A DNA stretch of 64,000 nucleotides from Pecten maximus (taxonomy: Eukaryota): NCBI RefSeq assembly GCF_902652985.1, contig NW_022983034.1, forward strand, positions 1-64,000, read 5' to 3'. Made by a program: the position numbers and the translations under genes. Shown here one piece after another: positions 25,421 to 64,000 of the stretch (within the stretch, counting starts at the first letter, position 1; the number at the start of each line of letters is the position of its first letter). A model generated the notes under the pieces. The model did no database searches, was not told the DNA's origin, and worked only from the letters and a program-made list of their open reading frames with translations.

Positions 25421-25495
25421 CTAAACGTAAGGACAGATATTCAAAAGTAATAGTCTCTGGAACATGATTAGTCTCAAAATTTCAATTATTCCCAT

Positions 25496-35984: not shown

Positions 35985-38054
35985 ATGGCGGAGGCTCTTA
36001 TAGACAATCAACCCTTCAAATGTCTGATATGTCTCCAGGAATGTAACATACCCCGACAGCTACCATGTTTTCACACGTTTTGCACCGGTTGTTTAAACAC
36101 CTATATTAATTCAGAATACGTCACAGAAGATAACAGGACGTACTTCCCCTGTCCGGTATGCGAAAGTCCGTGTTACCCTCAAAACAAGGATGCTCCCGTT
36201 AGTTCTTGGGCCGGTTCGTTTCCTCGGAACCAGCTGTTCGCTTCATCAACGTATAAAGAGACAGAATCAGGTCAGACATTCTGCCACGGATGTCTAACTG
36301 ACGACGAAGAGAACGTTGCTTCCTTCTGGTGTAAAGCATGCTCGGAAGCCTTGTGTCAGCCATGTCGCGTTGCACACCGACGAAGCAAATTACTTTCAAC
36401 GCACAAAGTCATTGCCATAGACGAGGTTTCTAAGACGGATATACGCATGCCTGTATTCATTGACAACACGTGTCCTCATCATACGGGAAAGACGATCGAA
36501 GTATACTGCCACGACCACAACGCCTTATGCTGTGTTCTGTGCGTGACACTGTCACATAGAAGGTGTACGAATGTTAGTAGCCTTGGAGATACTACAAAGA
36601 TGTTCTCACTTGATCTCATCGAATGTGAGTTAGAAAAGATGAAGGACGAGTCAAAAACGATTGTCGAAGAGGACGAAAACAAACTGACCACTCTCGAAGA
36701 CGATTACCAGAAAATGACCAGCAATGTGGCCACGATGATCAAGAAAGCGAAAGATAAGCTGGATGATCTTCACAAACGTTTTCAAACCGGGTTAGACGTA
36801 ACATACCGACGTCATCGAGAAAGTCTACATGAACGCTTACGCACCAATAGGATATTTCAAGCAAACATTGAAAACACCAACCAACTGATGAGGGTGGTAA
36901 AAGGAAAAAGTCCTGACGTTGATACATTTATTGTAACGGAACAATCCAAGACACAACTCCTAAGTCACGTGCGGCGTTTACAGCAGAGGACTGGAAGCAA
37001 GCACAACACATTTGAATTGAAGATTAGATATGACGACGTATTAGAGAAGGTCGTCAACGTGATGACAACTGTGGGAAGATTAGAAGTCTCCTCTTCATTG
37101 TCATCGTCATCACAAGACTCCCTCACATCTATCAGAAAAACCATTGACACACTCCAGGCAACATCGTCCGTGACATCGTTTTCCGAATCAACGTCCTCCT
37201 CGGACATGCTGAGAGATGTAGGACACGTGGCAGTTCCATCTTCAGTCAGTAGCGCCTCGTATTGACGTGTGGACTGGGTCTTTATCTCTGGTCAAGTCTG
37301 TACATAAAGGTTCCATCGGTGGGTCAGTGACTACATGTCTGACAGGAGGGATATTTATTGAAGGAGAAGGGTCTACTCGCTACAGACTACTACAAACAAA
37401 CAACTTTTACTGTTTGATGATAGCTATGAGTATATCAGGCATTATGATGTGGATAACCTTCCTATTGATATCACACGTGGATTTGAACCGAATCAGTTAC
37501 TAATGACCCAGACAAATGGGTCAGTCATTAAGTATACATTTCGGGATGGTGTCCTAACCACTGTCGACAGGATACGTAGTACTCAACAATGTTGGGGTAT
37601 AGATATTCTGGGAGATAACATACTGCTCGGGACTGAAAGTTCTGTCGAGATTTTAACATCTGACTTTAAACAGATAGCAGCCTCTATACCTAAACGCGGT
37701 TACAATACTTCCGTCGCCGCATCACCAAATGGACTCTTTTACCACGGAGATGAAGACGTCATCGTATGTCGGTCACATGATGGGAAGGAAGTGTTCCGGC
37801 ATATGTGTAAAGGTATCAAAGAGCTACGAGGAATTGTTGTTGACCAGGATGGTAATGTATACGTATGTAGAATGGAGTCGGGAGACATACACCTGATATC
37901 ACATGACGGCTCAAGGGAGAGAGTCCTTCTCCTAAGAATGTGTGGAATCACTCGACCGTACGCTATTGTTCTCCATCCAACAAGACAGGAGATCATTGTG
38001 ACGTCATGGCAGGAAAACGTGGTGTTTGAAGTGTACAAGTTTTGTGACCAGTGA
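35985..38054 (+). pseudogene. TRIM-NHL copy 5, three +1 insertions (pseudogene or consensus error)
   Basis: ORFs 35985-37265, 37267-37503 and 37449-38054 tile one gene. Single-base insertions lie near 37245, 37369 and 37390, and the span is copy 1 plus 3 nt. Confidence 0.75.
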
Positions 38055-39844
38055 TTGGTGTAACTACACTGATTATCGAAATGTGTTCTGTGATTTCCAC
38101 GATGTCTGTTTCATGAGGAATTAAATTAATTAATGTCACTACATACTATTTCATATAAGTTACGGGAATTGTGTGTGCACTAGCATTAATCATTAAACCT
38201 TAACCGACTAACCATTGTTTGATAACCAAGGGGAAAAGGGAATGATTAACATTATGGGTGCGCGATAGGGTATCCCACCCAAGGACTCTCAGTGTTTGAT
38301 GTCCGGTTCAAGCTATGAGCACTAACACATACAGCCATTAGCGAGAACTACTCTCAAACGTCGATACTAAACTGCAGTCTTCTTATTGGTGTGAATAAAT
38401 GAAATGTATAAAAGTTACCCTATTCCAGTGCGTATATATTTACGATGTCGTGTAGGAGAGAATAGACTGACAACTGTTTATTTTCTACTAACATGTACTT
38501 AACTTATTGTTACTTAATTATTCCTCCGATTGTTAACCTGACGAACTATTTTTTCCTCACATGTACCGTGAAACGTAATTAAGTTTGACACGATATCTAT
38601 TTCTGTGTGTATTTCTATGACTTATCATTTCTCTGTATCAATATAGAAAATTTATTTTGTTTACGCGTTGATAATGGGTGAAGTAGTTGCCCCATTTTGT
38701 AAATACTGAGCGCAAATGTATACTTGTTACAGGAAAGTGAGAGAACAATACATCTGATAATTTAAATAGGTCATTTAGAAGAACAATTAAGATCTTATAT
38801 TCACAGATAATAAAACAGAGGTTCTATATGTCCGTGCGTCATAATAACCCATCTCAGGTTGGGTTGGAATAACACGGATACGTTTTGAAAAGCTGATTTC
38901 AACAAAAATCAGTTCTCAGTATAGCTAATTTTTATTATTTACTGGAAGGTTTGTTCGGAATGATATTCCGTAAGTGAAGGGTGGGTTGAGATTTCAAATT
39001 CGTAATCTGTATACACATTTTTGTTTAAGTTACCGTCACAGGTACACTTTAAGCAATTGAAATAATTAGTTAATATAAGATTGTGAATTGTCTATACACG
39101 TTACATGTACTTGTCAGTGCTGTGTTGTAATGTGGAAAGTACCTTGTCTAATTTAGTAACGCAGTGTCATGTACGTGTAGTCCATACTGTGTATGTCCAT
39201 ATTTGGTGGTGTTTACGACTTATATGTAAATTAGGGTATGAAAGTGTAAGAAATCGTGCAAGAGTGAGAGCGAGAATAGTAAAACCCGTGGGTTATGGTA
39301 GAACGCCGCAGTAGCCATTCATAGGTCGGTAGGACATATCCTCTGGGGTCCGGTGACCAATTATGTAACAGACATGTGTACAGACTTACCGTTTTACCAG
39401 ACATAACAGTCTTGGAAGGTATGTTATCCTGACAAATATAATAGAATGACTAATAATTATAACTTTATTTAATAGATAGAATCATTACAGTCAGTTAATA
39501 TGTTGTCGAGTACATGTAGGCTACGTATGTATATCATACAGGCTATTTTGTGTTTCAGAGGGTTTTCCTTTTGTATCAAGTTATGTCCTAATCTCCGGTA
39601 GTAAAATATAGAAAGAACCAGCAGGAGTGTGTTCGTTTTCCTTCCTGTGACATACTTTTAGAGCAATGTAGACCATGTTGGACAATATTCTCGCTTTTGA
39701 GAGTTTTATCACAGGCGATACAAAAACAGTGCATTTGATACACACTATAAAGAGGTATGTCGACCTGTCATGTTGAAGAGTGACTTGACCATACTCGAAT
39801 GTAACCTTACAATGGTGTGTCAAATGATTCATAAAACAACATTT

Positions 39845-40018
39845 TCTGCAGTAACATTCTGTCCTGACGTAATTGTCCAAATAAACTGTGCAAAATATGT
39901 GAAAGCACGAGTCGCAGGGAACTACAAATCTCAAGGCAAAGAAAACAATTGAAGGATGGACCTTTAGAACAAGTTCATGTTTCCGCAATAACCCTTTTGT
40001 GTCTAAAATGAAAAACGA
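39845..40018 (-). pseudogene. RING remnant of the antisense TRIM paralog (unit 5)
   Basis: Near-identical to 6575-6750. Confidence 0.72.
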
Positions 40019-43000
40019 ACATCCAGATACTTCTATTTCAATATTCCTTCAGTCGGGTTATTATAATTATATGACCTTTCTTTGTTGGTGATTATATTTC
40101 AATCATAGGTTATTAGGACATCAATTTGCATTTACAGATGTGATACACTGTAATCTTTATGTTTACTCTAATAAAGTAAAGTCAATGGGATCGATTTGAC
40201 TTGGAATTTTTAACATACTATTGAGTTGAATTAAACTGGGACAGGATGCGTGATAATTACAACAAAATTAGTCATCTATATCATGGATAGAAGTCATACA
40301 CACACAATAATGAAACAAATAGGGTTATTGATATATAGATTGTTGAAGCTAACAATGAAAAACGTTAATGGTACAATTGATGCTCAATTTAGGTTAGAAA
40401 AAAAGCTTTTCAAATATTATTTTATTAACCAGCTTGAAAAAAGTTTATCTCCTGTTCAAGATGAGCGATTTTTGTTAATGTCTGAGCAGTATTTCGGTGT
40501 TCAATAAGTATGATTATGATTGCTCTGTTAAATCCACACAGAAAGTTTTTAAAATAAAAAGGACATTTAAGGAAAGTTATCTCTTCTAAATATATCAGGT
40601 TTAAAACTCATTCTACTATTAAGCTGATGGTTATAGAAAAGGAATCGCCACAAACTTACACCGTTGTAGACGGATTGCTGTAAAGTTTGTATAATATGTG
40701 TAAAATGTGTAGTATTTGAGGCGAGTACGGTGTGTGTGTATATATGCACATGTATATTGGTCTCGGGTAGATAAACTAGTGCATATGAGGTAGCTTTAAA
40801 TAGAAATGACCTGTTAGCAGGGTATTGTTCTCACTGATACAATAACTGTGGACGCATCACACCATATTTCATGTACAGTGAATGGGTTTGATTTGATTGT
40901 ATTTACTGTCGGTCATCACACGAGTGTAGAGCACTAAATATTTACCTGAAATAGTCATTGAATTTTAAGGTGTTGTGTTACATATGATGTATAATAAAGT
41001 AAAATACAATATACAATATGTGATTTGTTTAGAAACGGTAATTGTATATTAACATATACATCACATGTGATTTGTGATTGTCGTTCTGTGATTGGTAAAA
41101 ATATTCAAGATAACTAAAGCACTCTAATGTTAATGGGCCAACAAATGATGAGCAAAATTAAAACTAACAAACGAAACATGTAAAAAGGTAAATACATATT
41201 GGTACACTCACGTCGAAATGAAAAGTGCATATGCTTACCCAAATCTTGTGATGAAGACAAACAGCTCTCAGATATTTCTAACTTGTGTACATGTATATGC
41301 TAACAATTTTGAAAATAACCTTCAATTTAGACTTGCTTTGTTGTAAACACTCTCTCGTGTAAGTTGTAAATCAATGTAATCCAATAAAAATGTTTAACGG
41401 GAAATGGTTCATTGCATGATGATCATACAACTACAATATAAAGTATTGTTGGTGTATGGTATTATATTTTTTCATATGATACGGAACCTGTTAATTTCCA
41501 CCGCAGCCTCCAAAAACATACACACTACAGCATTTACACGCATGTATCTCGCACACAGGAGAAGCCGTACTGAAATTACATTATCTGTTCAAAGCAAACC
41601 ATATTGGATCATACCATATAAATCACACAAGTATATACTGATTTTAAATATTCATAACTAATAGTAACTTTATATAGGATTTAGATTTTGTTTTCACATC
41701 AGGTTTCTATTAATATTTCAGAGGAGACTTCAGAGGTCATTGAAACGTGATCTAATTTATATGTTTAGGAATTTCAAAGACTCAAATACATGAAATAGCG
41801 ACACTTCTGGAAAAACTTTTGTCATGACTTGCAGTATCATACATAATCATACTTTAGTTGACAGAATTTGTTAAAATCATATTTTTTATATGAACATATC
41901 AACCTAGTTGTCTCCCTTAACATGGAAACGAGCCAAACAATGTCCGTGTGTTGTAGAATCTATACAGATGTAAAAACCAGGAAGAACGTTATCTTATTTC
42001 ACGAGTTCGGAGGCTAAAATGTGTAAGTGTATCCATATATTGACCTATATACAACATTTTAGATGTTGGATGTCTATTTTTTTCAACATTTAGTTGTACA
42101 TTTTGTAAGAATACGTATTATGTGTAGTCTACAGCAATATAAACAGAAAATACATTCAGTTTTCACGAGGGACTAAATCGTATTTACACACTGTAAAATG
42201 CATTGTGTTTAACATGGTGTTTTAGATAAGATTATCTTTTCTTTTGTAATGTACATGTAGGTGTACCGTTGCAAATGATATAGTCTGTGTATTTGAACAG
42301 GTTTTCTTCCGGAAGTGGATACCACACAAGGTCAATCTGCTATTCGTAAGGATGAATCATTATAACAATGATTTAAGGAAAGATTGTGAGAGGAAAGGTA
42401 AGGAAGTGTCAAATAATTATTACAAATTAAATGAGTAAATATTTCAATGTCATTTTTTAAAACTTACAATCCCACTATAGGCATATGGAAATCGAAAGTA
42501 GATTATTTTTGTTATTGTTGATGTTCAACAACGAATAGTGGCTGGATATTATATATTCACCTAAGTTTAAGATAATTATGCCGACTTTTACCACGGACTA
42601 AGCAATGTGTATGTTAATTTTTTACACATTTACACAATAACATGTCAATATTTTTCAGATGCTTTACCAAAACATGTCCCAGCAGATATTAGTCATTTCC
42701 GACCCCAATATAACTAATTTTCTTCCGAAGCAATAATGAACCCATCTTCGATTAAATATAATGGCAACAGCTTATGTTCTCTAAAGAATCTGGAAGGAAT
42801 TCTACAGAAGTTGTTATAGAGTACATGTACTAACTGTCAGCAGATATTTTTCTTTTAAAAAATCCAAAAGGTGTAATTATTTGACTTGTCAATGTTCTAC
42901 CTTCAAGTAATTTGTCTATATTTAGTAATATCGCTACTTAAAGCAACAGTTCTATGGTCTATGATCAACCTTAATGGTACAGTGTACATTGTATAAGATT

Positions 43001-43088
43001 ATACTTAGAATTAATCAGTGGCACTGATCAAAGACTAGTGAAATGATTTAAGTTTTGTTTTTAACTTGCAGATAAACAAGCAATAGGC

Positions 43089-45125
43089 ATGGCAGAGGCT
43101 CATGTAGACAATCGATCTTTCAAATGTCTGATATGTCTCCAGGAATGTAACACACCCCGACAGCTACCATGTTTTCACACGTTTTGCACGGGTTGTTTAA
43201 ACACCTATATTAATTCTGAATACGTCACAGAATATAACAGGACGTACTTCCCCTGTCCGGTATGCGAAAGTCCGTGCTACCCTCACGACAAGGATGCTCC
43301 CGTTAGTTCTTGGGCCGGTTCGTTTCCTCGAAATCAGCTATTTGCTTCCTCAACGTTCAAAGAGACAGAATCAGGTCAGACATTCTGCCACGGATGTCTA
43401 ACTGACGACGAAGAGAACGTTGCTTCCTTCTGGTGTAAAGCATGCTCGGAAGCCTTGTGTCAGCCATGTCGCGTTGCACACCGACGAAGCAAATTACTTT
43501 CAACGCACAAAGTCATTGCCATAGACGAGGTTTCTAAGACGGATATACGCATGCCTGTATTCATTGACAACACGTGTCCTCATCATACGGGAAAGACGAT
43601 CGAAGTATACTGCCACGACCACAACGCCTTATGCTGTGTTCTGTGCGTGACACTGTCACATAGAAGGTGTACGAATGTTAGTAGCCTTGGAGATACTACA
43701 AAGATGTTCTCACTTGATGTCATCGAATGTGAGTTAGAAAAGATGAAGGACGAGTCAAAAACGATTGTCGAAGAGGACGAAAACAAACTGACCACTCTCG
43801 AAGACGATTACCAGAAAATGACCAGCAATGTGGCCACGATGATCAAGAAAGCGAAAGATAAGCTGGATGATCTTCACAAACGTTTTCAAACCGGGTTAGA
43901 CGTAACATACCGACGTCATCGAGAAAGTCTACATGAACGCTTACGCACCAATAGGATATTTCAAGCAAACATTAAAAACACCAACCAACTGATGAGGGTG
44001 GTAAAAGGGAAAAGTCCTGACGTTGATGCATTTATTGTAACGGAACAATCCAAGACACAACTCCTAAGTCACGTGCGGCGTTTACAGCAGAGGACTGGAG
44101 ACAAGCACAATACTTTTGAATTGAAGATGAGATATGACGACGTATTAGAGAAGGTCATCAACGTGATGACAACTGTGGGAAGATTAGAAGTCTCCTCTTC
44201 ATTGTCATCGTCATCACAAGACTCCCTCACATCTATCAGACAAACCATTGACAAACTCCAGGCCACATCGTCCGTGACATCGTTTTCCGAATCAACGTCC
44301 TCCTCGGACATGCTGTCGTCAATAGCGCCTCGCATTGACGTGTGGACTGGGTCTTTATCTCTGGTCAAGTCTGTACATAAAGGTTCCATCGGTGGGTCAG
44401 TGACTCCATGTCTGACAGGAGGGATATTTATTGAAGGAGAATGTCTACTCGCTACAGACTACACAAACAAAAAACTTTTACTGTTTGATGATAGCTATGA
44501 GTATGTCAGGCATTATGATGTGGATAACAGTCCTATTGATATCACATGTAGATTTGAACCGAATCAGTTACTAATGACCCAGCCAAATGGGTCAGTCATT
44601 AAGTATACATTTCGGGATGGTGTCCTAACCACTGTCGACAGGATACGTAGTACTCAACAATGTTGGGGTATAGATATTCTGGGAGATAACATACTGCTCG
44701 GGACTGAAAGTTCTGTCGAGATTTTAACATCTGACTTTAAACAGGTAGCAGCCTCTATACCTAAACGCGGTTACAATACTTCCGTCGCCGCATCACCAAA
44801 TGGACTCTTTTACCACGGAGATGAAGACGTCATCGTATGTCGGTCACATGATGGGAAGGAAGTGTTCCGGCATATGTGTAAAGGTATCAAAGAGCTACGA
44901 GGAATTGTTGTTGACCAGGATGGTAATGTATACGTATGTGGAATGGAGTCGGGAGACATACACCTGATATCACATGACGGCTCAAAGGATCGAATCCTTC
45001 TCCCAAGAATGTCTGGAATCGCTCGACCGTACGCCATACTTCACCATCCAAGAAGACAGGAGATCATTGTGACATCATGGCAGGAAAACGTGGTGTTTGA
45101 AGTGTACAAGTTTTGTGATCAGTGA
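43089..45125 (+). CDS. TRIM-NHL-type E3 ligase, copy 6 (678 aa, 10-aa linker deletion)
   Basis: Nearly identical to copy 1, with an in-frame 30-nt deletion removing RDVGHVAVPS near 44315. Confidence 0.94.
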   Translation: MAEAHVDNRSFKCLICLQECNTPRQLPCFHTFCTGCLNTYINSEYVTEYNRTYFPCPVCESPCYPHDKDAPVSSWAGSFPRNQLFASSTFKETESGQTFCHGCLTDDEENVASFWCKACSEALCQPCRVAHRRSKLLSTHKVIAIDEVSKTDIRMPVFIDNTCPHHTGKTIEVYCHDHNALCCVLCVTLSHRRCTNVSSLGDTTKMFSLDVIECELEKMKDESKTIVEEDENKLTTLEDDYQKMTSNVATMIKKAKDKLDDLHKRFQTGLDVTYRRHRESLHERLRTNRIFQANIKNTNQLMRVVKGKSPDVDAFIVTEQSKTQLLSHVRRLQQRTGDKHNTFELKMRYDDVLEKVINVMTTVGRLEVSSSLSSSSQDSLTSIRQTIDKLQATSSVTSFSESTSSSDMLSSIAPRIDVWTGSLSLVKSVHKGSIGGSVTPCLTGGIFIEGECLLATDYTNKKLLLFDDSYEYVRHYDVDNSPIDITCRFEPNQLLMTQPNGSVIKYTFRDGVLTTVDRIRSTQQCWGIDILGDNILLGTESSVEILTSDFKQVAASIPKRGYNTSVAASPNGLFYHGDEDVIVCRSHDGKEVFRHMCKGIKELRGIVVDQDGNVYVCGMESGDIHLISHDGSKDRILLPRMSGIARPYAILHHPRRQEIIVTSWQENVVFEVYKFCDQ

Positions 45126-46924
45126 TTGGTGTAACTACACTGACTATCGAAATGTTTTCTGTGATTTCCACGATGTCTGTTTCATGAGGAATCAAATAAA
45201 TTAATGTCACTACATACTATTTCATATAAGTTTCGGGAATTGTTTTGTGCACTAGCATTAATCAATAAACATTAACCGACTAACCAGTGTTTGATAACCA
45301 AGGGAAAAATGGAATGATTAACATTATGGGTGCGCGATAGGGTATCCCACCCAAGGACTCTCAGTGTTTGATGTCCGGGCAAGTTATGGGCACTAACACG
45401 TACAGCCATTAGCGAGAACTACTTTCAAACGTCGATACTAAGCTGCAGTTTTCTTATTGATGTGAATATAAATCAAATGTATAAATGTTATCCTATTCCA
45501 GTGCGTATATATTTACGATGTCGTGTAGGAGAGAATAGACAGACAACTGTTTATTTTCTACTAACATGTACTTAACTTATTTGTTACTTAATTATTCCTC
45601 CGAATGTTAACCTGACGAACTATTTTTTCCTCACATGTACCGTGAAACGTAATTAAGTTTGACACGATATCTATTTCAGTGTGTATTTCTATGACTTATC
45701 ATTTCTCTTTATCAACATAGAAAAATTTCTTTTGTTTACGCATTGATAATGGGTGCAGTAGTTGCCCCATTTCGTAAATACTTAGCGCAAATGTATACTT
45801 GTTACAGGAAAGCGAGAGAACAATACATCTGATAATTTAAATAGGTCATTTAGAAGAACAATTAAGATCTTATATTCACAGATAATAAAACAGAGGTTCT
45901 ATATGTCCGTGCGTCATAATAACCCATCTCGGGTTGGGTTGGAATAACACGGATACGTTTTGAAAAGCTGATTTCAACAAAAATCAGTTCTCAGTATAGC
46001 TAATTTTTATTATTTACTGGAAGGTTAGTTCGGAATGATATTCCGTAAGTGAAGGGTGGGTTGAGATTTCAAATTCGTAATCGGTATACACATTTTTGTT
46101 TAACTTACCGTCACAGGTACAATTTAATTTAATTGAAATAATTAGTTAATATAAGATTGTGAATTGTCTATACACGTTACATGTATTTGTCAGTGCTGTG
46201 TTGTAATGTGGAAGTACCTTGTCCAATTTCGTAACATAGTGTCATGTACGTGTAGTCCATACTGTGTATGTCCATATTTGGTGGTGTTTACGACTTATAT
46301 GTAAATTAGGGTATGAAAGTGTAAGAAATCGTGTAAGAGTGAGAGTGAGAATAGTAAAACCCGTGGGTCAGGGTAGAACGCCGCAGTAGCCGTTCATAGG
46401 TCGGTAGGACATATCCTCTGGGGTCCGGTGACCAATTATGTAACAGACATGTGTACAGACTTGCCGTTTTACCAGACATAACAGTCTTGGAAGGTATGTT
46501 ATCCTGACAAATAAAATAGAATGACTAATAATTATAACTTTATTTAATAGATAGAATTATTACAGTCAGTTAATATTGTGTCGAGTACATGTAGGCTACG
46601 TATGTATATCATACTTATACAGGCTATTTTGTGTTTCAGGGGTTTTTCCTTTTGTATCAAGTTATGTCCTAATCTCCAGTAGTAAAATATAGAAAGAACC
46701 AGCAGGAGTGTGTTCGTTTTCCTTCCTGTGACATACTTTTAGAGCAATGTAGACCATGTGGACAATATTCTCGCTTTTGAGAGTTTTTATCACAGGCGAT
46801 ACAAAAGCCGTGCATTTGATACACAATTTAAAGAGGTATGTGGACCTGTCGTGTTGAAGAGTGATTTGACCATAATCGCGTGTAACTTCACAATGGTGTG
46901 TCAAATGATTCAGAAAACAACATT

Positions 46925-47100
46925 TTCTGCAATAACATTCTGTCCTGACGTAATTGTCCAAATAAGCAGTGCAAAGTATGTAAAACACGATCACAGTCGC
47001 AGGGAACTTCAAACCTAAGGCAAAGTAAGCAATTGAAGGATGGTACTTTAGAACACGTTCATGTTTCCGCCATAACCTTTCCGTGCCTAAAACGAAAAAC
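46925..47100 (-). pseudogene. RING remnant of the antisense TRIM paralog (unit 6)
   Basis: Minus-strand ATG at 47073 reads MAET*TCSKVPSFNCLLCL, with an acceptor 13 nt upstream. Confidence 0.75.
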
Positions 47101-50100
47101 GAACATCCAGATACTTCTATTTCAATATTCCTTCAGTCGGGATATTATAATTATATTACCTTTCTTTGTTGGTGATTAGATTTCAATCATAGATTATTAG
47201 GACACCAATTTGCATGTACAGATGTGTTTTACATTATCGATTGTCGGAGGTGACAGAAGTCAATGGGATCGGTTTGAATTAGCATTTTTAACATCCTATT
47301 GAGTCGATTTAAACTGGGAACAAGATGCATGAAAATTACAACAAAATGAGTCATCTATATCATTGATAGAAGTCAAACACACAAAAGAAATATGACAAAT
47401 GTTGAAGTTAACAATGAAAAACGTTAATGGTACAATTGATGCTCAATTTAGGTTAGAAAAGAAACTTTTCAAATAGAATTTTATTAACCAGCTTGGGAAA
47501 AGTGTATCTCCTGTTCAAGATGAGCGATTTTTGTTAATGTCTGAGCAGTATTTCGGTGTTCAATAAGTCTGATTATGATTGCTCTGTTAAATCCACACAG
47601 AAAGTTTTTAAGATAAAAAGGACATTTAAGAAAAAGTTATCTCTTATAAATATATCAGGTTTAAAACTCATTCTACCATTTAGCTGATGGTTATAGAAAA
47701 GGAATCGCCACAAACTTACACCGTTATAGACGGATTGCGGTACAGTTTTGATGTGTAAAATGTGTAGTATTTGTGGCGAGTACGGTGTGTGTGTATATAT
47801 GCACATGTATAGGTAGTCTCGGGTGGATAAACTAGTGCATATAAGGTTGCTTTAAATAGAAATGACCTGTTAGCAGGGAATTGTTCTCATTGATACAATA
47901 ACTGTGGACGCATCACATAATATTTCATGTACAGTGAATGGGTTTCATTTGATTGTATTTACTGTCGGTCTTCACACGAGTGTAGAGCACTAAATATTTA
48001 CCTGAAATAGTTATTGATTTTTTAAGGTGTTGTGTTCCATATGATGTATAATAAAGTAAAATACAATATACAATATGTGATTTGTTTGGAAACGGTAATT
48101 GTATATTAACATATACATCACATGTGATTTGTGATTGTCGTTCTGTGATTGGTTAAAATATTCAAGATAACTATACCACTTTAAGGTTAAATGGGCCAAC
48201 AAATGATTAGCAAAATTAAAACTAACAAACAGAAATGTAAAAATGTTAATATATATTGGTACACCCACGTTAAAATGAAAAAGTGCATATGCTTACCCAA
48301 ATCTTGTGATGAAGACAAACAGCTCTCAGATATTTCAAACTTGTGTACATGTATATGCTAACAATTTTGAAAAGAACCTTAAATATAGACTTAAACACTC
48401 TTTCTTGTAAGTTGTAGATCAATGTAATCCAATAAAAATGTTTAACGGGAAATGGTTCATTGCATGATGATTGTACAACTACAATATAAAGTATTGTTGG
48501 TGTATGGATATTATATTTTTTCAGATGATACGGAACCTGTTAATTTCCTCCGCAGCCTCCAAAAGCATACACACTACAGCATTTACACGCATGTATCTCG
48601 CACACAGGAGAAGCCGTACTGAAATGACATTATCTGTTCAAAGCAAACCATATTGGATCATACCATCAAAAATCACACAAGTATATACTGATTTTAAATA
48701 TTCATAACTAATAGTAACTTTATATAGGATTTAGATTTTGTTTTCACATCAGGTTTCTATTAATATTTCAGAGGAGACTTCAGAGGTCATTGAAACGTGA
48801 TCTAATTTATATGTTTAGGAATTTCAAAGACACAAATACATGAAATGGCGACACTTCTCGAAAACACTTTTGACATGACTTGCAGTATCATAAATAATCC
48901 TACTTTAGTTGACAGCATTTGTTAAAATCATATTTTTATATGAACATATCAACCTAGTTGTCTCCCTTAACATGGAAACGAGCCAAACAATGTCCGTGTG
49001 TTGTATACAGATGTAAAAACCAGGAAGAAGGTTATCTTATTTCACGAGTTCGGAGGCTAAAATGTGTAAGTGTATCCATATATTGACCTATATACAACAT
49101 TTTAGATGTTGGATGTCTATTTTTTTCAACATTTAGTTGTACATTTTGTAAGAATACGTATTATGTGTAGTCAACAGCAATATAAACAGAAAGTACATTC
49201 AGTTTTCACTAGGGACTAAATCGTATTTACACACTGTAAAATGTATTGTGTTTAACATGGCGTTTTAGATAAGATTATCTTTTCTATTGTGATGTACATG
49301 TAGGTGTACCGTTGCAAATGATATAGTCTGTGTATTTGAACAGATTTTCTTCCGGAAGTGGATACCACGCAAGGTCAATCTGCTATTCGTAAGGATGAAT
49401 CATTATAACAATGATTTAAGGAAAGATTGAGAGAGGAAAGGTAAGGAAGTGTCAAATAATTATTACAAATTAAATGAGTAAATCTTTCAATGTCATTTTT
49501 TCAAAACTTACAATCCTACTATAGGCATATGGAAATCGAAAGTAGATTATTTTTGTTATTGTTGATGTTCAACAACGAATAGTGGCTCGATATTATATAT
49601 TCACCTAAGTTTAAGCTAATTATGCCGACTTTTACCACGGACTAAGCAATGTGTATGTTAATTTTTTACACATTTACACAATAACATGTCAATATTTTTC
49701 AGATACTTTACCAAAACATGTCCCAGCAGATATTAGTCATTTCCGACCCCAATATAACTAATTTTCTTCCGAAGCAATAATGAACCCATCTTCGATTAAA
49801 TATAATGGCAACAGCTTATGTTCTCTAAAGAAACTGGAAGGAATTCTACAGAAGTTGATATAGAGTACATGTTCTAACAGTCAGCAGATATTTTTATTTT
49901 AGAAAAATCCAAAAGGTGTAATTATTTGACTTCTCAATGTTCTATCTTCAAGTAATTTGTCTATATTTAGTAATATCGCTACTTAAAGCAACAGTTCTGT
50001 GGTCTATGATCAACCTTAATGGTACAGTGTACATTGTATAAGATTATACTCAGACTTAATCAGTGGCACTGATCAAAGACTTGTGAAATGATTTAAGTTT

Positions 50101-50133
50101 TGTTTTTAACTTGCAGATAAACAAGCAATAGGC

Positions 50134-52201
50134 ATGGCGGAGGCTCTTATAGACAATCAAACCTTCAAATGTCTGATATGTCTCCAGGAATGTAACACAC
50201 CCCGACAGCTACCATGTTTTCACACGTTTTGCACGGGTTGTTTGGACACCTATATCAATTCTGAATACGTCACAGAAGATAACAGGACGTACTTCCCCTG
50301 TCCGGTATACGAAAGTCCGTGCTACCCTCAAAACAAGGATGCTCCCGTTAGTTCTTGGGCCGGTTCGTTTCCTCGGAATCAGCTATTTGCTTCCTCAACG
50401 TTCAAAGAGACAGAATCAGGTCAGACATTCTGCCACGGATGTCTAACTGACGACGAAGAGAACGTTGCTTCCTTCTGGTGTAAAGCATGCTCGGAAGCCT
50501 TGTGTCAGCCATGTCGCATTGCACACCGACGAAGCAAATTACTTTCAACACACAAAGTCATTGCCATAGACGAGGTTTCTAAGACAGATATACGCATGCC
50601 TGTATTCCATTGTCAACACGTGTCCTCGTCATACAGGGAAGACGATCGAAGTATACTGCCACGACCACAACGTCTTATGCTGTGTTCTGTGCGTGACACT
50701 GTCACATAGAAGGTGTACGAATGTCAGCAGCCTTGAAGATACTACAAAGATGTTCTCACTTGATGTCATCGAATGTGAGTTAGGCAAGATGAAGGACGAG
50801 TCAAAAACGATTGTTGAAGAGGACGAAAACAAACTGACCGCTCTCGAAGACGATTACCAGAAAATGACCAGTAATGTGGCCATGATGATCAAGAAAGCGA
50901 AAGATAAGCTGGATCATCTCCACCAACGTTTTCAAACCGGGTTAGATGTAACATACCGACGTCATCGAGAAAGTCTACATGAACGCTTACGCACCAATAG
51001 GATATTTCAAGCAAACATTGAAAACACCAACCAACTGATGAGGGTGGCGAAAGAAAAAAATCCTGACGTTGACACATTTATTGTAACGGAACAATCCAAG
51101 ACACAACTTCTGAGACACGTGCGGCGTTTACAGCAGATGACTGGAGAAAAACACAACACATTTGAATTGAAGATGGGGTATGACGACGTATTAGAGAAGG
51201 TCATCAACGTGATGACAACTGTGGGAAGATTAGAAGTCTCATCTTCATTGTCATCGTCATCACATGACTCCCTCACATCTATCAGACAAATCATTGACAC
51301 ACTTCAGGCAACATCGTCCGTGACATCGTTTTCCGAATCAACGTCCTCCTCGGACATGCTGAGTGATGTAGGACACGTGGCCGTTCCATCTTCATCAGTA
51401 GCGCCTCGTATTGACGTGTGGACTGGGTCTTTATCTCTGGTCAAGTCTGTACATAAAGGTTCCATCGGTGGGTCAATGACTCCATGGCTGACAGGAGGGG
51501 TATTTATTGAAGGAGAGGGTCTACTCGTTATAAACTTCCAAAACAAACAACTTTTACTGTTTGATTATAGCTATGAGTATATCAGGCATTATGATGTGGA
51601 TAACAGTCCTATTGATATCACACGTGGATTTAAACCGAATGAGTTACTAATGACCCAGATGGGTAGGTCAGTCATTAGGTGTACATTTGGGGATGGTGTC
51701 CTAACCACTGTCGACAGGATACGTAGTACTCAACAATGTTGGGGTATAGATATTCTGGGAGATAAGATACTGCTCGGGACTGAAGGTTCTGTCGGGATTT
51801 TAACATCTGACTTGAAACAGGTAGCAGCCTCTATACCTAAACGCGGTCACAATACTTCCGTCGCCGCATCACCAAATGGACTCTTTTACCACAGAGATGA
51901 AGACGTCATTGTTTGTCCGTCACTTGATGGGAAGGAAGTGTTCCGGCATATGTGTAAAGGTATCAAAGAGCCAAGAGGAATTGTTGTTGACCAGGATGGT
52001 AATGTATACGTGTGTGGAATGGAGTCGGGAGACATACACCTGATATCACATGACGGCTCCAAGGATCGAATCCTTCTCCCAAGAATGTCTGGAATCACTC
52101 GACCGTACGCCATACTTCACCATCCAACAAGACAGGAGCTCATTGTGACGTCAAGGCAGGAAAACGTGATTTTTGAAGTGTACAAGTTTTGTGATCAGTG
52201 A
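50134..52201 (+). pseudogene. TRIM-NHL copy 7, one +1 frameshift and a RING Cys-to-Tyr change
   Basis: ORFs 50134-50709 and 50693-52201 overlap around a +1 at about 50606 (gtattccatt). The last RING pair reads CPVY instead of CPVC. Confidence 0.75.
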
Positions 52202-52871
52202 TTGGTGTAACTACACTGACTATCGAAATGTTTTCTGTGATTTCCACGATGTCTGTTTCATGAGGAATCAAATAAATTAATGTCACTACATACTATTTTA
52301 TATAAGTTTCGGTAATTGTTTTGTGCACTAGCATTAATCATTAAACCTTAACCGACTAACCAGTGTGTGATAACAAAGGGAAAAAGGGAAAGATTAACAT
52401 TATGGGTGCGCGATAGGGTATCCCACCCAAGGACTCTCAGTGTTTGATGTCCGGTCCATCTATGAGCACTAACACGTACAGCCATTAGCGAGAACTACTT
52501 TCAAACGTCGATACTTAACTGCAGTCTTCTTATTGATGTGAATAAATGAAATGTATAAATGTTATCCTATCCCAGTGAGTATAGATATACGATGTCGTGT
52601 AGGAGAGATTAGACAGACAACTGTTATTTTCTAACATCTACTTATCTGATATGTTTCTTATCAAATTATTCCTCCGATTGCGATTGTTAACCTGACGAAA
52701 TCATTGTTACGTCACATGTAATGGGAAACGTAATAAAAGTTTTACAGGATATCACTTTCTGTGTGTACTTCTAAAACTTATTGTTTATTATTTATCTGTA
52801 TCAACATAGAAAACGTCTTACTCCAGAGAAGTGAAAATTAACCCGTAAATATACCCTCGATTTTAAACATA

Positions 52872-53120
52872 TTTGGTTTTGAATTTCAACAACTATGGTC
52901 ATTAAACTTTATGTGAGATATACATGCGTGTAGTAACTGTTTGTGTATTTTGGGGAGACTAAAGTATGTTTGTCTGTGTTTCTCTTTGTGATAGCGGAGA
53001 ATTGATCTAACAGGCTAAGGCTATATTAGACCTTTCCTATAAGTTCCTGTAGAAACGATGCCGGATTTATAGTGTTACCTCATTGAAATACACTGCCGAG
53101 GACATGTAGAAGGACACACC
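52872..53120 (-). mobile_element. Degenerate SINE-like fragment (partial homolog at about 33326-33460)
   Basis: tatagtgttacctcattgaaatacactgccgaggacat resembles bivalve SINE sequence from recall. The left part is shared with the copy-4 3' flank. Confidence 0.35.
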
Positions 53121-54117
53121 TTGACCTAGTTTCAGGTCGTTATTTTACATTTGAAAGTAATCGTTAGTCGACTGATGGTTATTCAATAACAATGTCCATA
53201 TGTATCACGGCGTTTTAGCCGTATATACCATGTGGAGTGGACGGACGGACGGACGTACGGCCGGTTGTGACCGAGGTTCGAGAGAGACTGCCCGCCGATA
53301 ATGGGTGAACCAATCGCCTAATGTCGAAAATGCTGAGCGCAAATAAATATTTGTTACAAGAAAGTTAGAGGATAATAATTTAATTTTTCTTGTAACAAGC
53401 ATTTTCATTGGCTCAAAAAATTATGGTATCATCTCATAACATAAAAAAAAATAAACTGTGACGTCATCGGAGTAATCGTTGTTCACGGGATTTTGTATTT
53501 ATCGATGCGTTTTTAAATATCTGGAGCAAAATAAACATGTTAAACTTTATGAAAATGTTTCTTATCGTTGTTAATTAAATTATAAGGGTTAACTGTAATA
53601 TTTGTTTTACGTTATTGAGCAATAACACAAAAAAACTGGGGTGTTCTCTTTTCATAAAAACCCTTAAATGCATCTGATACATTATAGAGCTTATTCAAAT
53701 TTCACTATCAACTACTTATTTGAAGTCATTTTGAAGGAACAATTAAGATATTATATTAGCATCTCAAAAAAACGGATACGTTTTGAGAAACTGAATTCTC
53801 AGTATACCTTATTTTCACTAGTCCGTTAATTTGGAATATTCTGTAAATGAAGTTCTTTGAAAACAAATCGTAAGGTAGCAGTGTACAGTAAAAATGTGTC
53901 TCTGTTACATAGAATTTTCAGGGATGTCAACAGCATTGAAGATGCATGTACAGTAAAAATGCCTAATTCTGAAAAAAATAAGGCACACGTTTTAAATAAG
54001 CCCTGTTAAACATAAATATTACCTAAACTGAAGTATATATATTTGTAATCTATGCAACCTTTGCAATTTAAATACAGCCGTGAAGTATGAGTATTCTGTA
54101 ACGGATGTTACCTGATG

Positions 54118-54985
54118 ACGAAGACAACGTATCCATTGACAACACGTGTCCTCCTCATACGGGAAAGACGATCGAATTATACTGCCACCACCACAACGCC
54201 TTATGCTGCGTTCTTCGCGTGTCTCTGTTACATAGAACTTTCAAGGATGTCAATAGCATTGACGATACTACAAAGTCGTTCCCGTTTGATTTTATAGAAT
54301 ATGTGTTTAGCAAGATGAGGGACGAGTCAAAAACGATTGTTGAAGAGGACGAAAACAAACTGGCCACTCTAATCGCCGATTGCCAGACAGTGACCAATAA
54401 TGTTGCTGCGGTGATCAAGAAAGCGAAAGATAAGCTTGACGACCTCCACCGTAGTTTTCAAACCGAGCTTGACGTGACATACCAACGTCATAAAGATAGT
54501 CTAAATGATCGATTACACACCAAGAAGATATTCCATGCGAACGTGGAGAATACCAACCAGCTAAAGGTGGTGATTAAAGAACGATTTTATGACAGTCAGA
54601 CGTTTATTGCAATGGAACAATCCAAAATACAACTTACAAAACACGTGCGACGTTTACAATAGAGGACCAACGACAAACACTTTTGAACTAAATCTTACGT
54701 ATGACGACTTATTAGAGAAAGTCATTAACGTGATGACAACTGTCTGAGGATTAGATGTCTGCTCTTTCTTGTCATTGTCCTCGTACGACTCCCTCACCGA
54801 GACAGTTCGTGTGGACTGGAGATCCGTCGCTGCTCAATTCTGTTCAGAAATTTTCTATCAGAGGGGCAGAGACTCCATGGCTAACACGAGGAATGTTTAT
54901 TAAAGGCGACGGTCTTATTTTTCCGGACTTTAACATCTAAAGACCGTACGATGATAACTTAGACTATATAAGACATTACGATGTA
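54118..54985 (+). pseudogene. Older, divergent TRIM fragment (B-box2, coiled coil, start of propeller)
   Basis: SIDNTCPPHTGKTIELYCHHHNALCC...KHVRRLQ* followed by frameshifted VWTG..TPWLTRG. No RING or B-box1. Confidence 0.9.
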
Positions 54986-56197
54986 GAAATACATTTTATT
55001 GTGCTCTTACAGTTTTCAAATTGTGCAAAATATCTAATCTTTGAAAGAGGATTAAAATACCGTTGTTGAAGAGCAATGTACATAACAGATGCAGTATAAG
55101 GTATTCCATTCAAGAATTCACTAATCGATATCCGGGACAATTCACGAGGCTCAAGCATTTACCAAAGTTGATAACTTTTTCTCGGCGTACAGACACAAAC
55201 TATGTGAACTAATTTTTAAAAATTAGTTAAAAAATGGATGATAAATACCTCTCATTTTATTTCGGCACAAAACTTTCCTTAGCTACACAATTTGACATAA
55301 AAATAAAGTTAAATATTCCGATAAATTATTCAGATTTTGAATGTTGCGTAGCTCGACATGCTACAATTAGCATTTAGAATTATTCGGATTTATAATCAAC
55401 AATCAGAACATGAATTTTAAGTAGCGCGATTTACGACATTCAACATCTAGAATCATTTAAAATTTAAATGTTGTGAACCTCGACTATTTTTGAGCATCGT
55501 AAAAAGTATTGAGACACCATATCTATGCCAGTAATACCGATTCACCTGCGTTGACTTCTACAAAAAACAAAACCCTTAGCACTGAAACGAGGTGTACAAA
55601 GTCCAGAGTAGGTGTATACACAATCTGTTCTTAGACGAAACGGTGTAAGTATCCATATATAGGCATTTTTCAGCATAATAGATGTTGGATGTCTGTTCTA
55701 CTTTTGTTTTTATATATTGTGTAAGAAAAACTAAATAATAAGATTGTATATGTAATCAACAACAGCATAAACTGAAAGTAAATTCATTCTCACGGTTTCT
55801 ACTGAGGACCGAAATCGCGTTTGTTTGCACACACATGTACAACGTGTTTTGTTTTATATGACGTCTTAGATAAGATTAAAGTATTTCCATTGTGATGTAC
55901 GTATATGTGTACCGTTGTTGAACAGTTTCTGTACCGGAGGTGGATACCACACAAGAACGATCTGCTTTTCATGAAGATGCATCGTTATATTAATTAATTT
56001 ATATTTATACTCAAGCTTTATGCATTTGTTTACTGATTACACACTCATTAGTCGATTTAGATCAAATAGCTAATGCTAGAGCACAAAACAATTTCCGTAA
56101 CGTATATGAAGTAGTATGCAGTGACTTGAATTTATTTATTTCTCGTAAAACACCAATTGTAGAAATCATATGAAACATTTCAATGTAGTTAAACCAA

Positions 56198-57245
56198 TCA
56201 CTGGTCACAAAACTTGTACACTTCAAACGCCACGTTTTCCTGCAATGACGTCACAATGAGCTCCTGTCTTGTTGGATGGAGAACTACAGCGTACGGTTGA
56301 GTGATTCCACACATTCTTGGGAGAAGGACTCTCTCCTTTGAGCCGTCATGTGATATCAGGTATATGTCTCCCGACTCCATTCCACACACGTATACATTAC
56401 CATCCTGGTCAACAACGATTCCTCGTGGCCCTTTGATACCTTTACACATATGCCGGAACACTTCCTTCCCATCATGTGACCGACATACGATGACATCTTC
56501 ATCGCTGTGGTAAAGGAGTCCATTTGGTGATGCGGCCACGTACAGGTTGTTACCGCAATAAGGTAGAGAGGGTACCTATTTAAAGTCTGATGTTAAAATC
56601 TCGACAGAACCTTTAGTCCCGGTCAGTATCTTATCTCCCAGAGTATCTATACCCCATTGATTTGGATAACTTCTTATACTGTCGACAGTGGTAAGGACAC
56701 CATCCCGAAATGTACACCTAATGACTGACCCATTTGTCTGGGTCATTAGTAACTCATTCGGTTCAAATCCACGTGTGATATCAATAGGACGGTTATCCAC
56801 ATCATAATGCCTGATATACTCATAGCGATCATCAAACAGTAAAAGTTTTTTTTAGTACTGGAGTCAGAAGCGAGTAGACCTTCTCCTTCAATAAATACCC
56901 CTCCTGTCAGCCATGGAGTCATTGACCCACCGATGGAACCTTTATGTACAGACTTGACCAGAGATAAAGACCCAGTCCACACGTCTATACGAGGCGATAT
57001 TGACGAAGATGGAACTGCCACGTGTCCTACATCACTCAACATGTCCGAGGAGGACGTAGATTCGGAAAACGATGTCACGGACGATGTTGCCTGGAGTGTG
57101 TCAATGATTTGTCTGATAGATGTGAGGGAGTCATGTGATGACGATGACAATGAAGAGGAGACTTCTAATCTTCCCACAGTTGTCATCACGTTGACGACCT
57201 TCTCTAATACGTCGTCATACCCGATCTTCAATTCAAAAGTATTGT
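56198..57245 (-). pseudogene. Inverted 3' half of a TRIM-NHL copy
   Basis: Minus-strand ORFs 56746-57231, 56576-56800 and 56198-56539 match the linker and propeller through FEVYKFCDQ. There is a frameshift in an A-run near 56850 and a premature TAG near 56577. Confidence 0.92.
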
Positions 57246-57248
57246 ACG

Positions 57249-58605
57249 CTGACCGCTCTCGAAGACGATTACCAGAAAATGACCAGTAATGTGGCCATGA
57301 TGATCAAGAAAGCGAAAGATAAGCTGGATGATCTCCACCAACGTTTTCAAACGGGTCAGACGTAACATACCGACGTCATCAAGATAGTCTACATGAACGC
57401 TTACGCACTAATAGGATATTTCAAGCAAACATTGAAAACACCAACCAACTGGTGAGGGTGGTCAAAGAAAAAAGTCCCGACGTTGATACATTTATTGTAA
57501 CGGAACAATCCAAGACACAACTTCTGAGACACATGCGGCGTTTACAGCAGAAGACTGGAGACAAACACAACACATTTGAATTGAAGATGATATATGACGA
57601 CGTATTAGAAGTCATCAACGTGATGACAACTGTAGGAAGATTAGAAGTCTCCTCTTCATTGTCATCGTCATCACATGACTCCCTCACATCTATCAGACAA
57701 ATCATTGACACACTCCAGGCCACATCGTCCGTGACATCGTTTTCCGAATCAACGTCCTCCTCGGACATGCTGAGTGATGTAGGACACGTGGCAGTTCCAT
57801 ATTCATCAGTAGCGCCTCGTATTGACGTGTGGACTGGGTCTTTATCTCTGGTCAAGTCTGTACATAAAGGTTCCATCGGTGGGTCAATGACTCCATGGCT
57901 GACAGGAGGGGTATTTATTGAAGGAGAGGGTCTACTCGTTATAAACTTCCAAAACAAACAACTCTTACTGTTTGATGATAGCTATGAGTATATCAGGCAT
58001 TATGATGTGGATAACCATCCTATTGATATCACACGTGGATTTGAACCGAATGAGTTACTGATGACCCAGATGGGTAGGTCAGTCATTAGGTGTACATTTC
58101 GGGATGGTGTCCTTACCACTGTCGGCAGGATAAGTAGTTATCTCAGTCAATGGGGTATAGATACTCTGGGAGATAAGATACTGACCGGGACTATAGGTTG
58201 TGTCGAGTTTTAACATCAGACTTTAAACAAGTAGCGTCTATACCTAAACGCAGTAATAGTACGTTCGTTGCCGCATCACCAAATGGACTCTTTTACCACA
58301 AAGACGAAGACGTCATCGTATGTCGGTCACTTGATGGGAAGGAAGTGTTCCGGCATATGTGTAAAGGTATCAAAGAGCCACGAGGAATTGTTGTTGACCA
58401 GGATGGTAATGTATACGTGTGTGGAATGGAGTCGAGAGACATACACCTGATATCACATGACGGCTCAAAGGAGGGAGTCCTCTCAAGAATGTGTGGAATC
58501 ACTCGACCGTACGCCATACTTCACCATCCAAAAAGACAGGAGATCATTGTGACGTCAAGGCAGGAAAACGTGGTCTTTGAAGTGTACAAGTTTTGAGACC
58601 AGTGA
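57249..58605 (+). pseudogene. 5'-truncated TRIM-NHL copy (coiled coil to C-terminus)
   Basis: Starts mid-coiled-coil (ctgaccgctctcgaagac). Has 1-nt deletions near 57352 and 58208 and a TGT-to-TGA change three codons before the normal stop. Confidence 0.92.
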
Positions 58606-63601: not shown

Positions 63602-64000
63602 ATGGCAGAGGCTCATGTAGACAATCGATCTTTCAAATGTCTGATATGTCTCCAGGAATGTAACACACCCCGACAGCTACCATGCTTTCACACGTTTTGC
63701 ACGGGTTGTTTGGACACCTATATCAATTCTGAATACGTCACAGAAGATAACAGGACGTACTTCCCCTGTCCGGTATGCGAAAGTCCGTGCTACCCTCACG
63801 ACAAGGATGATCCCGTTAGTTCTTGGGCCGGTTCGTTTCCTCGGAATCAGCTATTCGCTTCCTCAATGTTCAAAGAGACAGAATCAGGTAAGACATTCTG
63901 CCACGGATGTCTAACTGACGACGAAGAGAACGTTGCTTCCTTCTGGTGTAAAGCATGCTCGGAAGCCTTGTGTCAGCCATGTCGCGTTGCACACCGACGA
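63602..64000 (+). CDS. TRIM-NHL copy, 5' part (runs off the window)
   Basis: ATG GCA GAG GCT CAT... is open to the window end, covers the RING and most of B-box1, and has the same upstream acceptor. Confidence 0.9.
   Translation, partial: MAEAHVDNRSFKCLICLQECNTPRQLPCFHTFCTGCLDTYINSEYVTEDNRTYFPCPVCESPCYPHDKDDPVSSWAGSFPRNQLFASSMFKETESGKTFCHGCLTDDEENVASFWCKACSEALCQPCRVAHRR

What the first reader, a model, noticed from the sequence alone, without database searches (positions are those of the whole stretch)
35985..58605. Patchwork of shared variants shows segment shuffling between paralogs
Copy 7 shares SMTPW..VINFQNKQ..TQMGRS with the fragment at 57249, then switches to the copy 1/5/6 block (RSTQQCWGIDILGD..LLGTE..QVAASIPKRG.NTSV, including the extra Ala codon). 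Copies 5 and 7 share the N-terminus MAEALIDNQ although their upstream regions are of different types. The inverted copy combines SMTPW with the copy-4-type SYP.QWG. No single tree fits, which points to gene conversion or unequal crossover recombining propeller blades. The intron-free CDS and invariant linker could serve as homology anchors (inference).
Basis: partly seen in the sequence, partly recalled or inferred. Interest (0 to 1): 0.7.

Follow-up and report, generated by a model that had tools for sequence, protein, structure and literature searches.

The report
Recombining scallop TRIM-propeller gene array
Neighbouring copies of a scallop zinc-finger/propeller (TRIM-like) gene are patchworks of one another, most likely because they have repeatedly swapped DNA, which remixes the variable loops on one predicted face of the propeller and would give a varied set of intracellular binding proteins, possibly for immunity; the swapping does not follow whole propeller blades.

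Summary
The patchwork is real. The window is a tandem array of RING–B-box–B-box–coiled-coil–six-bladed-propeller genes in a scallop (fold closest to the TRIM2 NHL domain); four more copies lie on contig C15. One tree is rejected: PHI p≤1/10,000 in 14 of 14 subsets, z −13.8 against a minimum of −2.6 in 400 no-recombination simulations. Copy 7 switches from fragment-type to copy-1/6-type at 51,681–51,703, and contigs of 2 of 4 runs laid there carry that junction without a difference. Copy 7 also has a 25–65 nt conversion-like tract at its ATG; copy 8 shows flank exchange (crossover). Corrections: switches do not favour blade boundaries or the linker, which is not invariant; they occur along the whole gene and reassort single top-face loops. 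The inverted copy is a weak example. The gene has an upstream intron. Some frameshifts in copies 5 and 7 look like consensus-mixing errors. Top-face loops are hypervariable, with modest evidence of positive selection. An immune-sensor role is inferred, not shown. This scan reported similar arrays in mussel, oyster, clam and sea star.

The parts
2741..4807 (+). copy 1, intact 688-aa ORF
9833..11896 (+). copy 2, intact 687-aa ORF
17684..19720 (+). copy 3, broken by a 4-nt and a 17-nt deletion
30801..32864 (+). copy 4, intact 687-aa ORF; used as coordinate reference and for structure models
35985..38054 (+). copy 5; second type of upstream region; three single-base insertions near 37244, 37369, 37391, two of which hold both paralog alleles (possible consensus errors)
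43089..45125 (+). copy 6, intact, 0.5% from copy 1, 30-nt in-frame deletion in the linker
49373..49440 (+). 3' part of the upstream (probably non-coding) exon of copy 7, GT donor at 49441; intron 49441-50116
   Evidence: RNA contig loose end, located
50134..52201 (+). copy 7, mosaic; single-base insertion near 50607 that holds both paralog alleles
50139..50163 (+). short tract of the other N-terminal type (LIDNQT), flanked on both sides by copy-1-type sequence: conversion-like
51224..51681 (+). fragment-like tract of copy 7 (SMTPW, VINFQ, MGRS)
51681..51703 (+). switch interval, in the c-d hairpin of predicted blade 2
51703..51897 (+). copy-1/5/6-like tract of copy 7 (RSTQQC, extra Ala codon)
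54105..55001 (+). old degenerate remnant, about 78% identical to the other copies
56198..57245 (-). inverted 5'-truncated copy (from CDS nt 1019), frameshift and stop
57249..58605 (+). 5'-truncated fragment (from CDS nt 700), back to back with the inverted copy across 3 extra bases
63602..64000 (+). copy 8 (continues to contig base 65674, intact 690 aa): copy-2-like to nt 786, then other types, other downstream flank

Best explanation
The copies of this tandem TRIM-like gene are mosaics that most likely arose by repeated germline recombination between misaligned paralogs (short gene-conversion tracts plus unequal crossovers), which reassorts the variable top-face loops of a predicted six-bladed NHL-type propeller on a more conserved RING/B-box/coiled-coil scaffold. 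Shown: mosaic structure, switch positions, loop-centred variability, one junction in independent contigs. Inferred: homologous recombination as the cause (conversion for tracts bounded on both sides, crossover where the flanks also switch, which also changes copy number). Inferred and untested: each protein dimerises by its coiled coil, binds a ligand on the propeller top face and ubiquitinates it through the RING, so that mutation in the loops makes new loop alleles and recombination combines them into new specificities, probably against intracellular pathogens. About 0.9 for real paralog recombination, about 0.5 for the immune-sensor purpose.
For: PHI p<=1/10,000 in 10 of 10 subsets incl. 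third positions, non-CpG sites, N-terminus and propeller alone and 0/10,000 in 4 of 4 subsets without the suspect copies, incl. only the intact copies 1, 2, 4, 8. 43% incompatible site pairs vs at most 33% and 36% in 2x200 single-tree simulations; PHI z -13.8 vs minimum -2.6. 30 of 30 cross-partition trees rejected by AU at p<0.05 (biased towards each partition's own tree). Painting: 35 switches vs simulated mean 5.3, max 11, at the strictest penalty. Multi-base markers travel in different company: 3-nt insertion in c1/5/6/7, 9-nt insertion in c8 and b2 on two contigs. c8 vs c2: 8 differences in nt 1-786, 141 in the other 1275, and different downstream flanks. Contigs across the c7 switch with 0 differences: X2, 199 nt; X8, 94 nt. 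Donor-like tracts keep 2-4% differences, unlike a join of assembled copies. Propeller model pLDDT 97, top hit TRIM2 NHL, TM 0.82. Top loops 2.59 residue types per site vs 1.60 in bottom loops, p 1.4e-6; dN/dS 1.11 vs 0.27. Site model with w>1 preferred in the propeller (2dL 14.2, p 0.0008), not in the N-terminus (1.25).
Against: No run holds copy 7 whole (best share of words 0.53). 4 of 8 single-base insertions in c5, c7, b1, b2 hold both paralog alleles (chance 0.106, p 0.006), so part of the fine detail of these copies may be mixed consensus. The tool marks X2 as possibly this DNA's source; the X8 contig has depth 2 and only 22 bases left of the switch interval; X3 and X5 showed no bridging piece among those listed. 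The largest-triplet-run statistic did not separate data from simulation (41 vs maxima 45 and 30), and painting at the laxest penalty did not either (151 vs mean 134). Top-loop dN/dS interval includes 1 (0.69-1.93); fitted w is only about 1.7 and residual recombination or multi-base changes can inflate the test. No ligand, expression response or ligase activity was tested. Donor and recipient cannot be ordered.
Confidence: 0.8

Rival explanations
1. The recombination is real but is a neutral by-product of tandem arrangement; top-face loops are merely unconstrained and the array is a birth-and-death cluster without a recognition role.
For: Switches occur along the whole gene and spacers too are patchy. 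Top-loop dN/dS 1.11 with interval 0.69-1.93. Many copies are broken as assembled. Higher switch density in the propeller may reflect more informative sites.
Against: Bottom loops are constrained (0.27) while top loops are not; w>1 class preferred only in the propeller; two paralogs of another scallop differ at the same loops, 27 of 49 differences in the propeller, which is 38% of the length.
Confidence: 0.35
2. The mosaics are assembly chimeras or polishing mixtures of reads from different copies or haplotypes.
For: Both-allele single-base insertions in c5, c7, b1; unplaced contig of a repeat array; no run holds c7 whole; the c7 frameshift sits at an inferred switch (nt 473-494).
Against: Signal persists in copies without such insertions; the c7 junction is in contigs of two runs of different studies; tracts differ from their best donors by 2-4%; the same loop alleles recombine across three separate contigs.
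Confidence: 0.06
3. One tree plus parallel mutation at hot or selected sites explains the shared variants.
For: The propeller is fast-evolving and several sites have four or more residues.
Against: Simulations with fitted and sharpened site rates do not reach the observed incompatibility; shared indels and multi-base blocks; signal at third positions and in the N-terminus.
Confidence: 0.02
4. A directed cassette system in which the truncated fragment and inverted copy act as silent donors for expressed copies.
For: The closest match to the c7 tract 1090-1547 is the truncated fragment.
Against: The tract differs from it at 11 of 458 bases, the same block is in b3, intact copies are mosaics of each other, and switches are not at fixed sites.
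Confidence: 0.04

Closest known systems
TRIM-NHL proteins (class VII / Marin subfamily C: TRIM2, TRIM3, TRIM32/Thin, TRIM56, TRIM71, Brat)
   Same: RING, two B-boxes, long coiled-coil helix, six-bladed propeller whose best structural matches are TRIM2, Thin, TRIM71, TRIM3 NHL domains. In Brat the b-c and d-a loops form the ligand-binding top surface (PMC4015489, passages read).
   Different: No filamin domain; no Pfam NHL-repeat hit; 14-18% identity to those domains; single coding exon; multi-copy, mosaic and variable on the top face, whereas that paper counts three to five members per species.
Fish btr/finTRIM and primate TRIM5-like B30.2 clusters
   Same: Tandem RBCC genes with a fast-evolving C-terminal binding domain; recombination breakpoints in zebrafish btr B30.2 (PMC3137616, passages read); copy-number variation and gene conversion in primate TRIM clusters (PMC3228819, passages read).
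   Different: Binding domain is an NHL-type propeller, not B30.2/PRY-SPRY; mosaicism here covers the whole gene; no antiviral test exists for these genes.
Variable propellers of invertebrate DED-TRADD-N proteins
   Same: Lineage-specific expansions in marine invertebrates with variable C-terminal propellers, proposed to diversify by recombination (PMC8195603, passages read).
   Different: WD40 propellers on death-fold adaptors, with variable repeat number; here a RING ligase with a fixed six blades.

Membership tests
TRIM (RBCC) proteins | N-terminal RING finger | tested here: met
   PF00097 and PF13445 at or near cut-off in c1 and c4
TRIM (RBCC) proteins | one or two B-boxes | tested here: met
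   PF00643 above cut-off, two stretches; Cys/His conserved in alignment
TRIM (RBCC) proteins | coiled-coil region | tested here: met
   predicted helices 209-308 and 311-336, pLDDT about 80-90
TRIM (RBCC) proteins | E3 ligase activity | not testable with these tools
   inferred from the RING only
TRIM-NHL (class VII) | six-bladed NHL-type propeller fold | tested here: met
   model pLDDT 97; Foldseek ranks 1-9 are NHL domains of TRIM2, Thin, TRIM71
TRIM-NHL (class VII) | NHL repeat sequence signature (Pfam) | tested here: not met
   no NHL family among hits at E<=0.01; only SGL and SBBP propeller models
TRIM-NHL (class VII) | filamin-type domain before the propeller (present in most members; recalled) | tested here: not met
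   no Pfam hit; the region is one helix plus a disordered Ser-rich stretch
TRIM-NHL (class VII) | RNA binding by a positively charged top face | not tested
   no electrostatics or binding test; top loops are variable
TRIM-NHL (class VII) | phylogenetic placement with TRIM2/3/32/56/71 | not tested
   no tree with those proteins was built
B30.2/PRY-SPRY antiviral TRIM clusters | C-terminal B30.2 domain | tested here: not met
   propeller instead
Paralog gene conversion / unequal crossover | clustered incompatible sites and tracts with sharp ends | tested here: met
Paralog gene conversion / unequal crossover | mosaic present in real molecules | tested here: inconclusive
Paralog gene conversion / unequal crossover | copy-number difference between haplotypes | tested here: inconclusive
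   C3905 (8 full + 3 partial copies) and C15 (4 copies) share the right flank at 94-95%; allelic or duplicated locus not settled

The most novel reading that the evidence does not exclude
Scallops keep an NHL-propeller counterpart of vertebrate TRIM5/finTRIM clusters: a polymorphic intracellular recognition locus in which recombination combines twelve top-face loops into new ubiquitin-ligase specificities, and in which the two haplotypes of one animal (at least 8 versus 4 full-length copies, none closer than 5.8%) carry entirely different repertoires held by balancing selection.
Probability: 0.3. Interest if true: 0.72.

Novelty: new variant of a known kind. Interest (0 to 1): 0.45.

Why it matters
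Recombination among tandem paralogs is ordinary. What adds value is what is being mixed: the predicted ligand face of an NHL-type propeller on a RING ligase, in a family with at least 123 related loci in this genome. If these are sensors, they are a candidate intracellular recognition repertoire for bivalves, and the natural loop mosaics give ready-made reagents to map specificity. Practically, it warns that gene trees, ortholog calls, dN/dS tests and pseudogene calls in such arrays are unreliable on unphased assemblies.

Tried and rejected
Blade-boundary and linker-anchor models: not supported. Largest triplet run as a test: not discriminating. Painting with lax penalties (and penalty 8) oversplits; at penalty 16 about 25 of 66 switches are expected without recombination, so only regional patterns and triplet-confirmed switches are used. 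Pairwise identical-run test: 3 of 66 pairs reached 0/1000 permutations; the others would not survive correction. First codon-model fit had an unmoved mixture weight in the null; replaced by a grid/EM fit. Triplets for inverted copy, fragment and c7/c5/c6 were weak or null. Summed contig depth was not used as copy number. The c7 insertion is absent from the contigs laid there in 4 of 4 runs, but those carry other paralog differences, so this does not prove an error. c6 was dropped from loop statistics and codon models as near-identical to c1; c1/c6 and b1/b4 were barred as each other's donors in painting; the old remnant and (in most tests) the C884 piece were left out. Ten paper searches listed no paper on recombining TRIM-propeller arrays in bivalves; subscription journals and supplements were not seen. 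No complex was predicted.
Full report
SETTING. The window is bases 1-64,000 of a 100,570-base contig (C3905) in a 918-Mb genome. Self-comparison and ORF listing show a tandem array of 2.06-kb ORFs in 5-7 kb units: copies 1-7 in the window, copy 8 running to contig base 65,674, a 5'-truncated fragment, a 5'-truncated inverted copy and older remnants. Pfam gives RING, two B-boxes and weak propeller hits. Closest outside proteins are from scallops at 47-64% identity, and two neighbours on contigs of the same lengths are labelled Pecten maximus. A protein search of the genome gave 123 matches among 150 of 272 candidates scored, many in open frames of about 670-720 codons, so this is one subfamily of a large family. 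Four further copies (b1-b4) lie on C15 at 32.94-32.97 Mb.

OBSERVATION. Copy 7 differs from the fragment at 11 of 458 bases in CDS nt 1090-1547 and at 32 of 191 in nt 1569-1760; against copy 6 the figures are 35 of 428 and 6 of 192. The switch lies between window 51,681 and 51,703 (MaxChi 34.2, 0 of 2000 permutations). At its start, copy 7 has the second type at 6 of 6 diagnostic sites in nt 6-30, with copy-1-type DNA upstream and at nt 65 and 189: a tract of 25-65 bases bounded on both sides. The inverted copy's SMTPW + YPNQ pairing also occurs in b1 and b4 and, with small changes, in the fragment and b3, so it is more likely a parent than a product; its triplet tests were weak.

MORE THAN CHANCE. 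PHI gave p<=1/10,000 in 10 of 10 subsets and 0/10,000 in 4 of 4 subsets limited to intact copies or copies without suspect insertions. In 400 simulations on one tree with site rates kept in order or sharpened, incompatible pairs reached at most 33% and 36% (observed 43%) and PHI z at least -2.6 (observed -13.8); the longest-run statistic did not discriminate (41 vs maxima 45 and 30). Each of six partitions rejected all five other partition trees by AU, and five of six rejected the whole-gene tree; that test favours each partition's own tree. Calibrated painting gave 66, 49 and 35 switches at penalties 16, 20, 25 against simulated means 25.5, 12.6, 5.3. Well-supported trees conflict: c8 groups with c2 at 100% in the N-terminus and with b2 at 100% in mid-propeller, where both carry a 9-nt insertion.

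REAL OR ASSEMBLY? No public run holds copy 7 whole (best 0.53 of words). Laying four runs on 51,600-51,800, a 453-base contig of X2 (depth 11) matches 51,602-51,800 and a 94-base contig of X8 (depth 2, another study) matches 51,659-51,752, both without a difference; both join the MGRS codons to the RSTQQC codons. X3 and X5 showed no bridging piece among the 13 listed of 33. The tool notes that X2 could be this DNA's source. Tracts keep 2-4% differences from their best donors, which a join of assembled copies would not. Against this, 4 of 8 single-base insertions in c5, c7, b1, b2 carry both paralog alleles side by side (chance 0.106, p 0.006), which I read from general knowledge as a mark of consensus over mixed reads. 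So the broken state of copies 5 and 7 is doubtful, and some fine switches in them may be artefacts; the overall signal does not depend on them.

TWO KINDS OF EVENT. The tract at the ATG of copy 7 has the form of gene conversion. Copy 8 has the form of a crossover: it differs from copy 2 at 8 of the first 786 bases and 141 of the remaining 1275, its upstream spacer is 1.5% from that of copy 2, and its downstream flank is of the other type (98.4% to the b3-b4 spacer). C3905 and C15 share the right flank at 94-95% and the copy-4/5 spacer at 94-95%; that flank had full-length matches only on C15, and the 170 kb of C15 fetched has no gap. C3905 is therefore most likely the other haplotype of the C15 locus, or a close duplicate. 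No copy on one contig is closer than 5.8% to a copy on the other. In Mizuhopecten, neighbouring paralogs on one scaffold are 93% identical to each other but 64% to this array, as expected from concerted evolution or independent expansion.

WHAT IS MIXED. The C-terminal 263 residues model as a six-bladed propeller (pLDDT 97), closest to NHL domains of TRIM2, Thin and TRIM71 (TM up to 0.82, 14-18% identity). The full-length model shows zinc-finger regions, a 100-residue helix, a short helix, a disordered stretch and no filamin domain. Using the definition of the top surface as the b-c and d-a loops (PMC4015489, passages read), and assigning loops from secondary structure only, top loops have 2.59 residue types per site vs 1.60 in bottom loops and 1.72 in strands; dN/dS is 1.11 (0.69-1.93), 0.27 and 0.67. 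Domain dN/dS is 0.28-0.49 in the N-terminal parts and 0.68 in the propeller. A class with w about 1.7 is preferred in the propeller on segment-wise trees (2dL 14.2) and not in the N-terminus (1.25); this is modest evidence. The loop table shows loop alleles in many combinations, e.g. MGRS with RSTQQC (c7), YLSQ (fragment) or YPSQ (b3); IDRS with YPNQ (b1, b4) or CVGMV (b2).

Of 66 switches, 40 are in the propeller (51 per kb, partly a matter of detection power), 26 outside; 3 are in the linker; 4 of the 40 have midpoints in inter-blade loops, which make up 17% of the length. The c7 switch is in the c-d hairpin of blade 2 and separates two top-face loops. The unit of exchange is thus a DNA tract of tens to hundreds of bases, not a blade. 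The linker is no more conserved than the B-boxes; at 90-95% identity the whole coding exon offers homology. An RNA contig joins an upstream exon to 50,117 across canonical GT-AG sites; in copy 7's version of this exon an in-frame TGA follows the upstream ATG, so it is probably untranslated.

MECHANISM. Shown: mosaics, tract ends, variable top loops. Inferred: misaligned homologous recombination; RING ligase activity; ligand binding on the top face. Most likely purpose: diversification of an intracellular binding repertoire, by analogy with btr/finTRIM and primate TRIM clusters (PMC3137616, PMC3228819, passages read) and with TRIM56, an antiviral NHL-like TRIM (PMC6623546, PMC11768893, search listing and start of abstract only). 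A mussel transcript annotated as TRIM56 rose about 3.6-fold with poly(I:C) (PMC7773633, passages read), but its relation to this subfamily was not checked. Hemizygosity is widespread in molluscs including P. maximus (10.1101/2020.09.15.298695, passages read; B-box genes are not mentioned in its main text; supplements not seen). PMC3503706 (passages) gave the subfamily C definition; PMC8195603 (passages) the variable-propeller parallel.

NOVELTY AND SCORE. The process is well known; its occurrence in a propeller-type TRIM array of a bivalve was not found in ten searches. This scan's unreviewed notes describe similar arrays in mussel, oyster, clam and sea star; they are leads, not support. It works like a B30.2 TRIM cluster but is not one; it is an RBCC protein with an NHL-type fold that fails two sequence-level TRIM-NHL features. 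Interest 0.45.

Noticed in passing
window 22042-27982: About 5.9-kb element with terminal inverted repeats and a TTAA duplication, inserted in a spacer; its first 1.4 kb has about 38 near-full-length matches elsewhere in the genome at 82-96% among 40 candidates scored; contains a 33-bp minisatellite; no long ORF. TTAA and AG termini recall Kolobok-type transposons (from memory).
   Followed up: partly
G000:C15:32,939,700-32,981,800 (L006-L011): Second array of four copies sharing the right flank with C3905; only b4 is intact as assembled; no near-identical counterpart between the two arrays.
   Followed up: yes
G000:C15:32,972,916-32,981,837: 4.46-kb tandem duplication at 99.66% identity next to the array; recent duplication or assembly artefact.
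   Followed up: no
L014 (G000:C884, 6.7 kb): Small contig with a further degenerate 3' half of the gene and spacer, possibly the leftward continuation of the array; it also joins an IGRS loop to RSTQQ.
   Followed up: partly
window 13245-13916 (-): Older, about 45% identical paralog remnant on the minus strand with a B-box hit.
   Followed up: no
window 37244, 37369, 50607: Single-base insertions that contain both paralog alleles; probable consensus errors that make copies 5 and 7 look like pseudogenes.
   Followed up: partly
window 57245-57249: Back-to-back junction of two 5'-truncated copies that differ by 8.3%, so not a fold-back read artefact; three extra bases at the joint.
   Followed up: partly
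window 21255-21840: About 585-base insertion in the spacer after copy 3.
   Followed up: no
run X4/X7/X12 loose ends near 51739: Other animals carry the CVGMV-type loop with further variants, so loop alleles seen in c8 and b2 segregate more widely.
   Followed up: no
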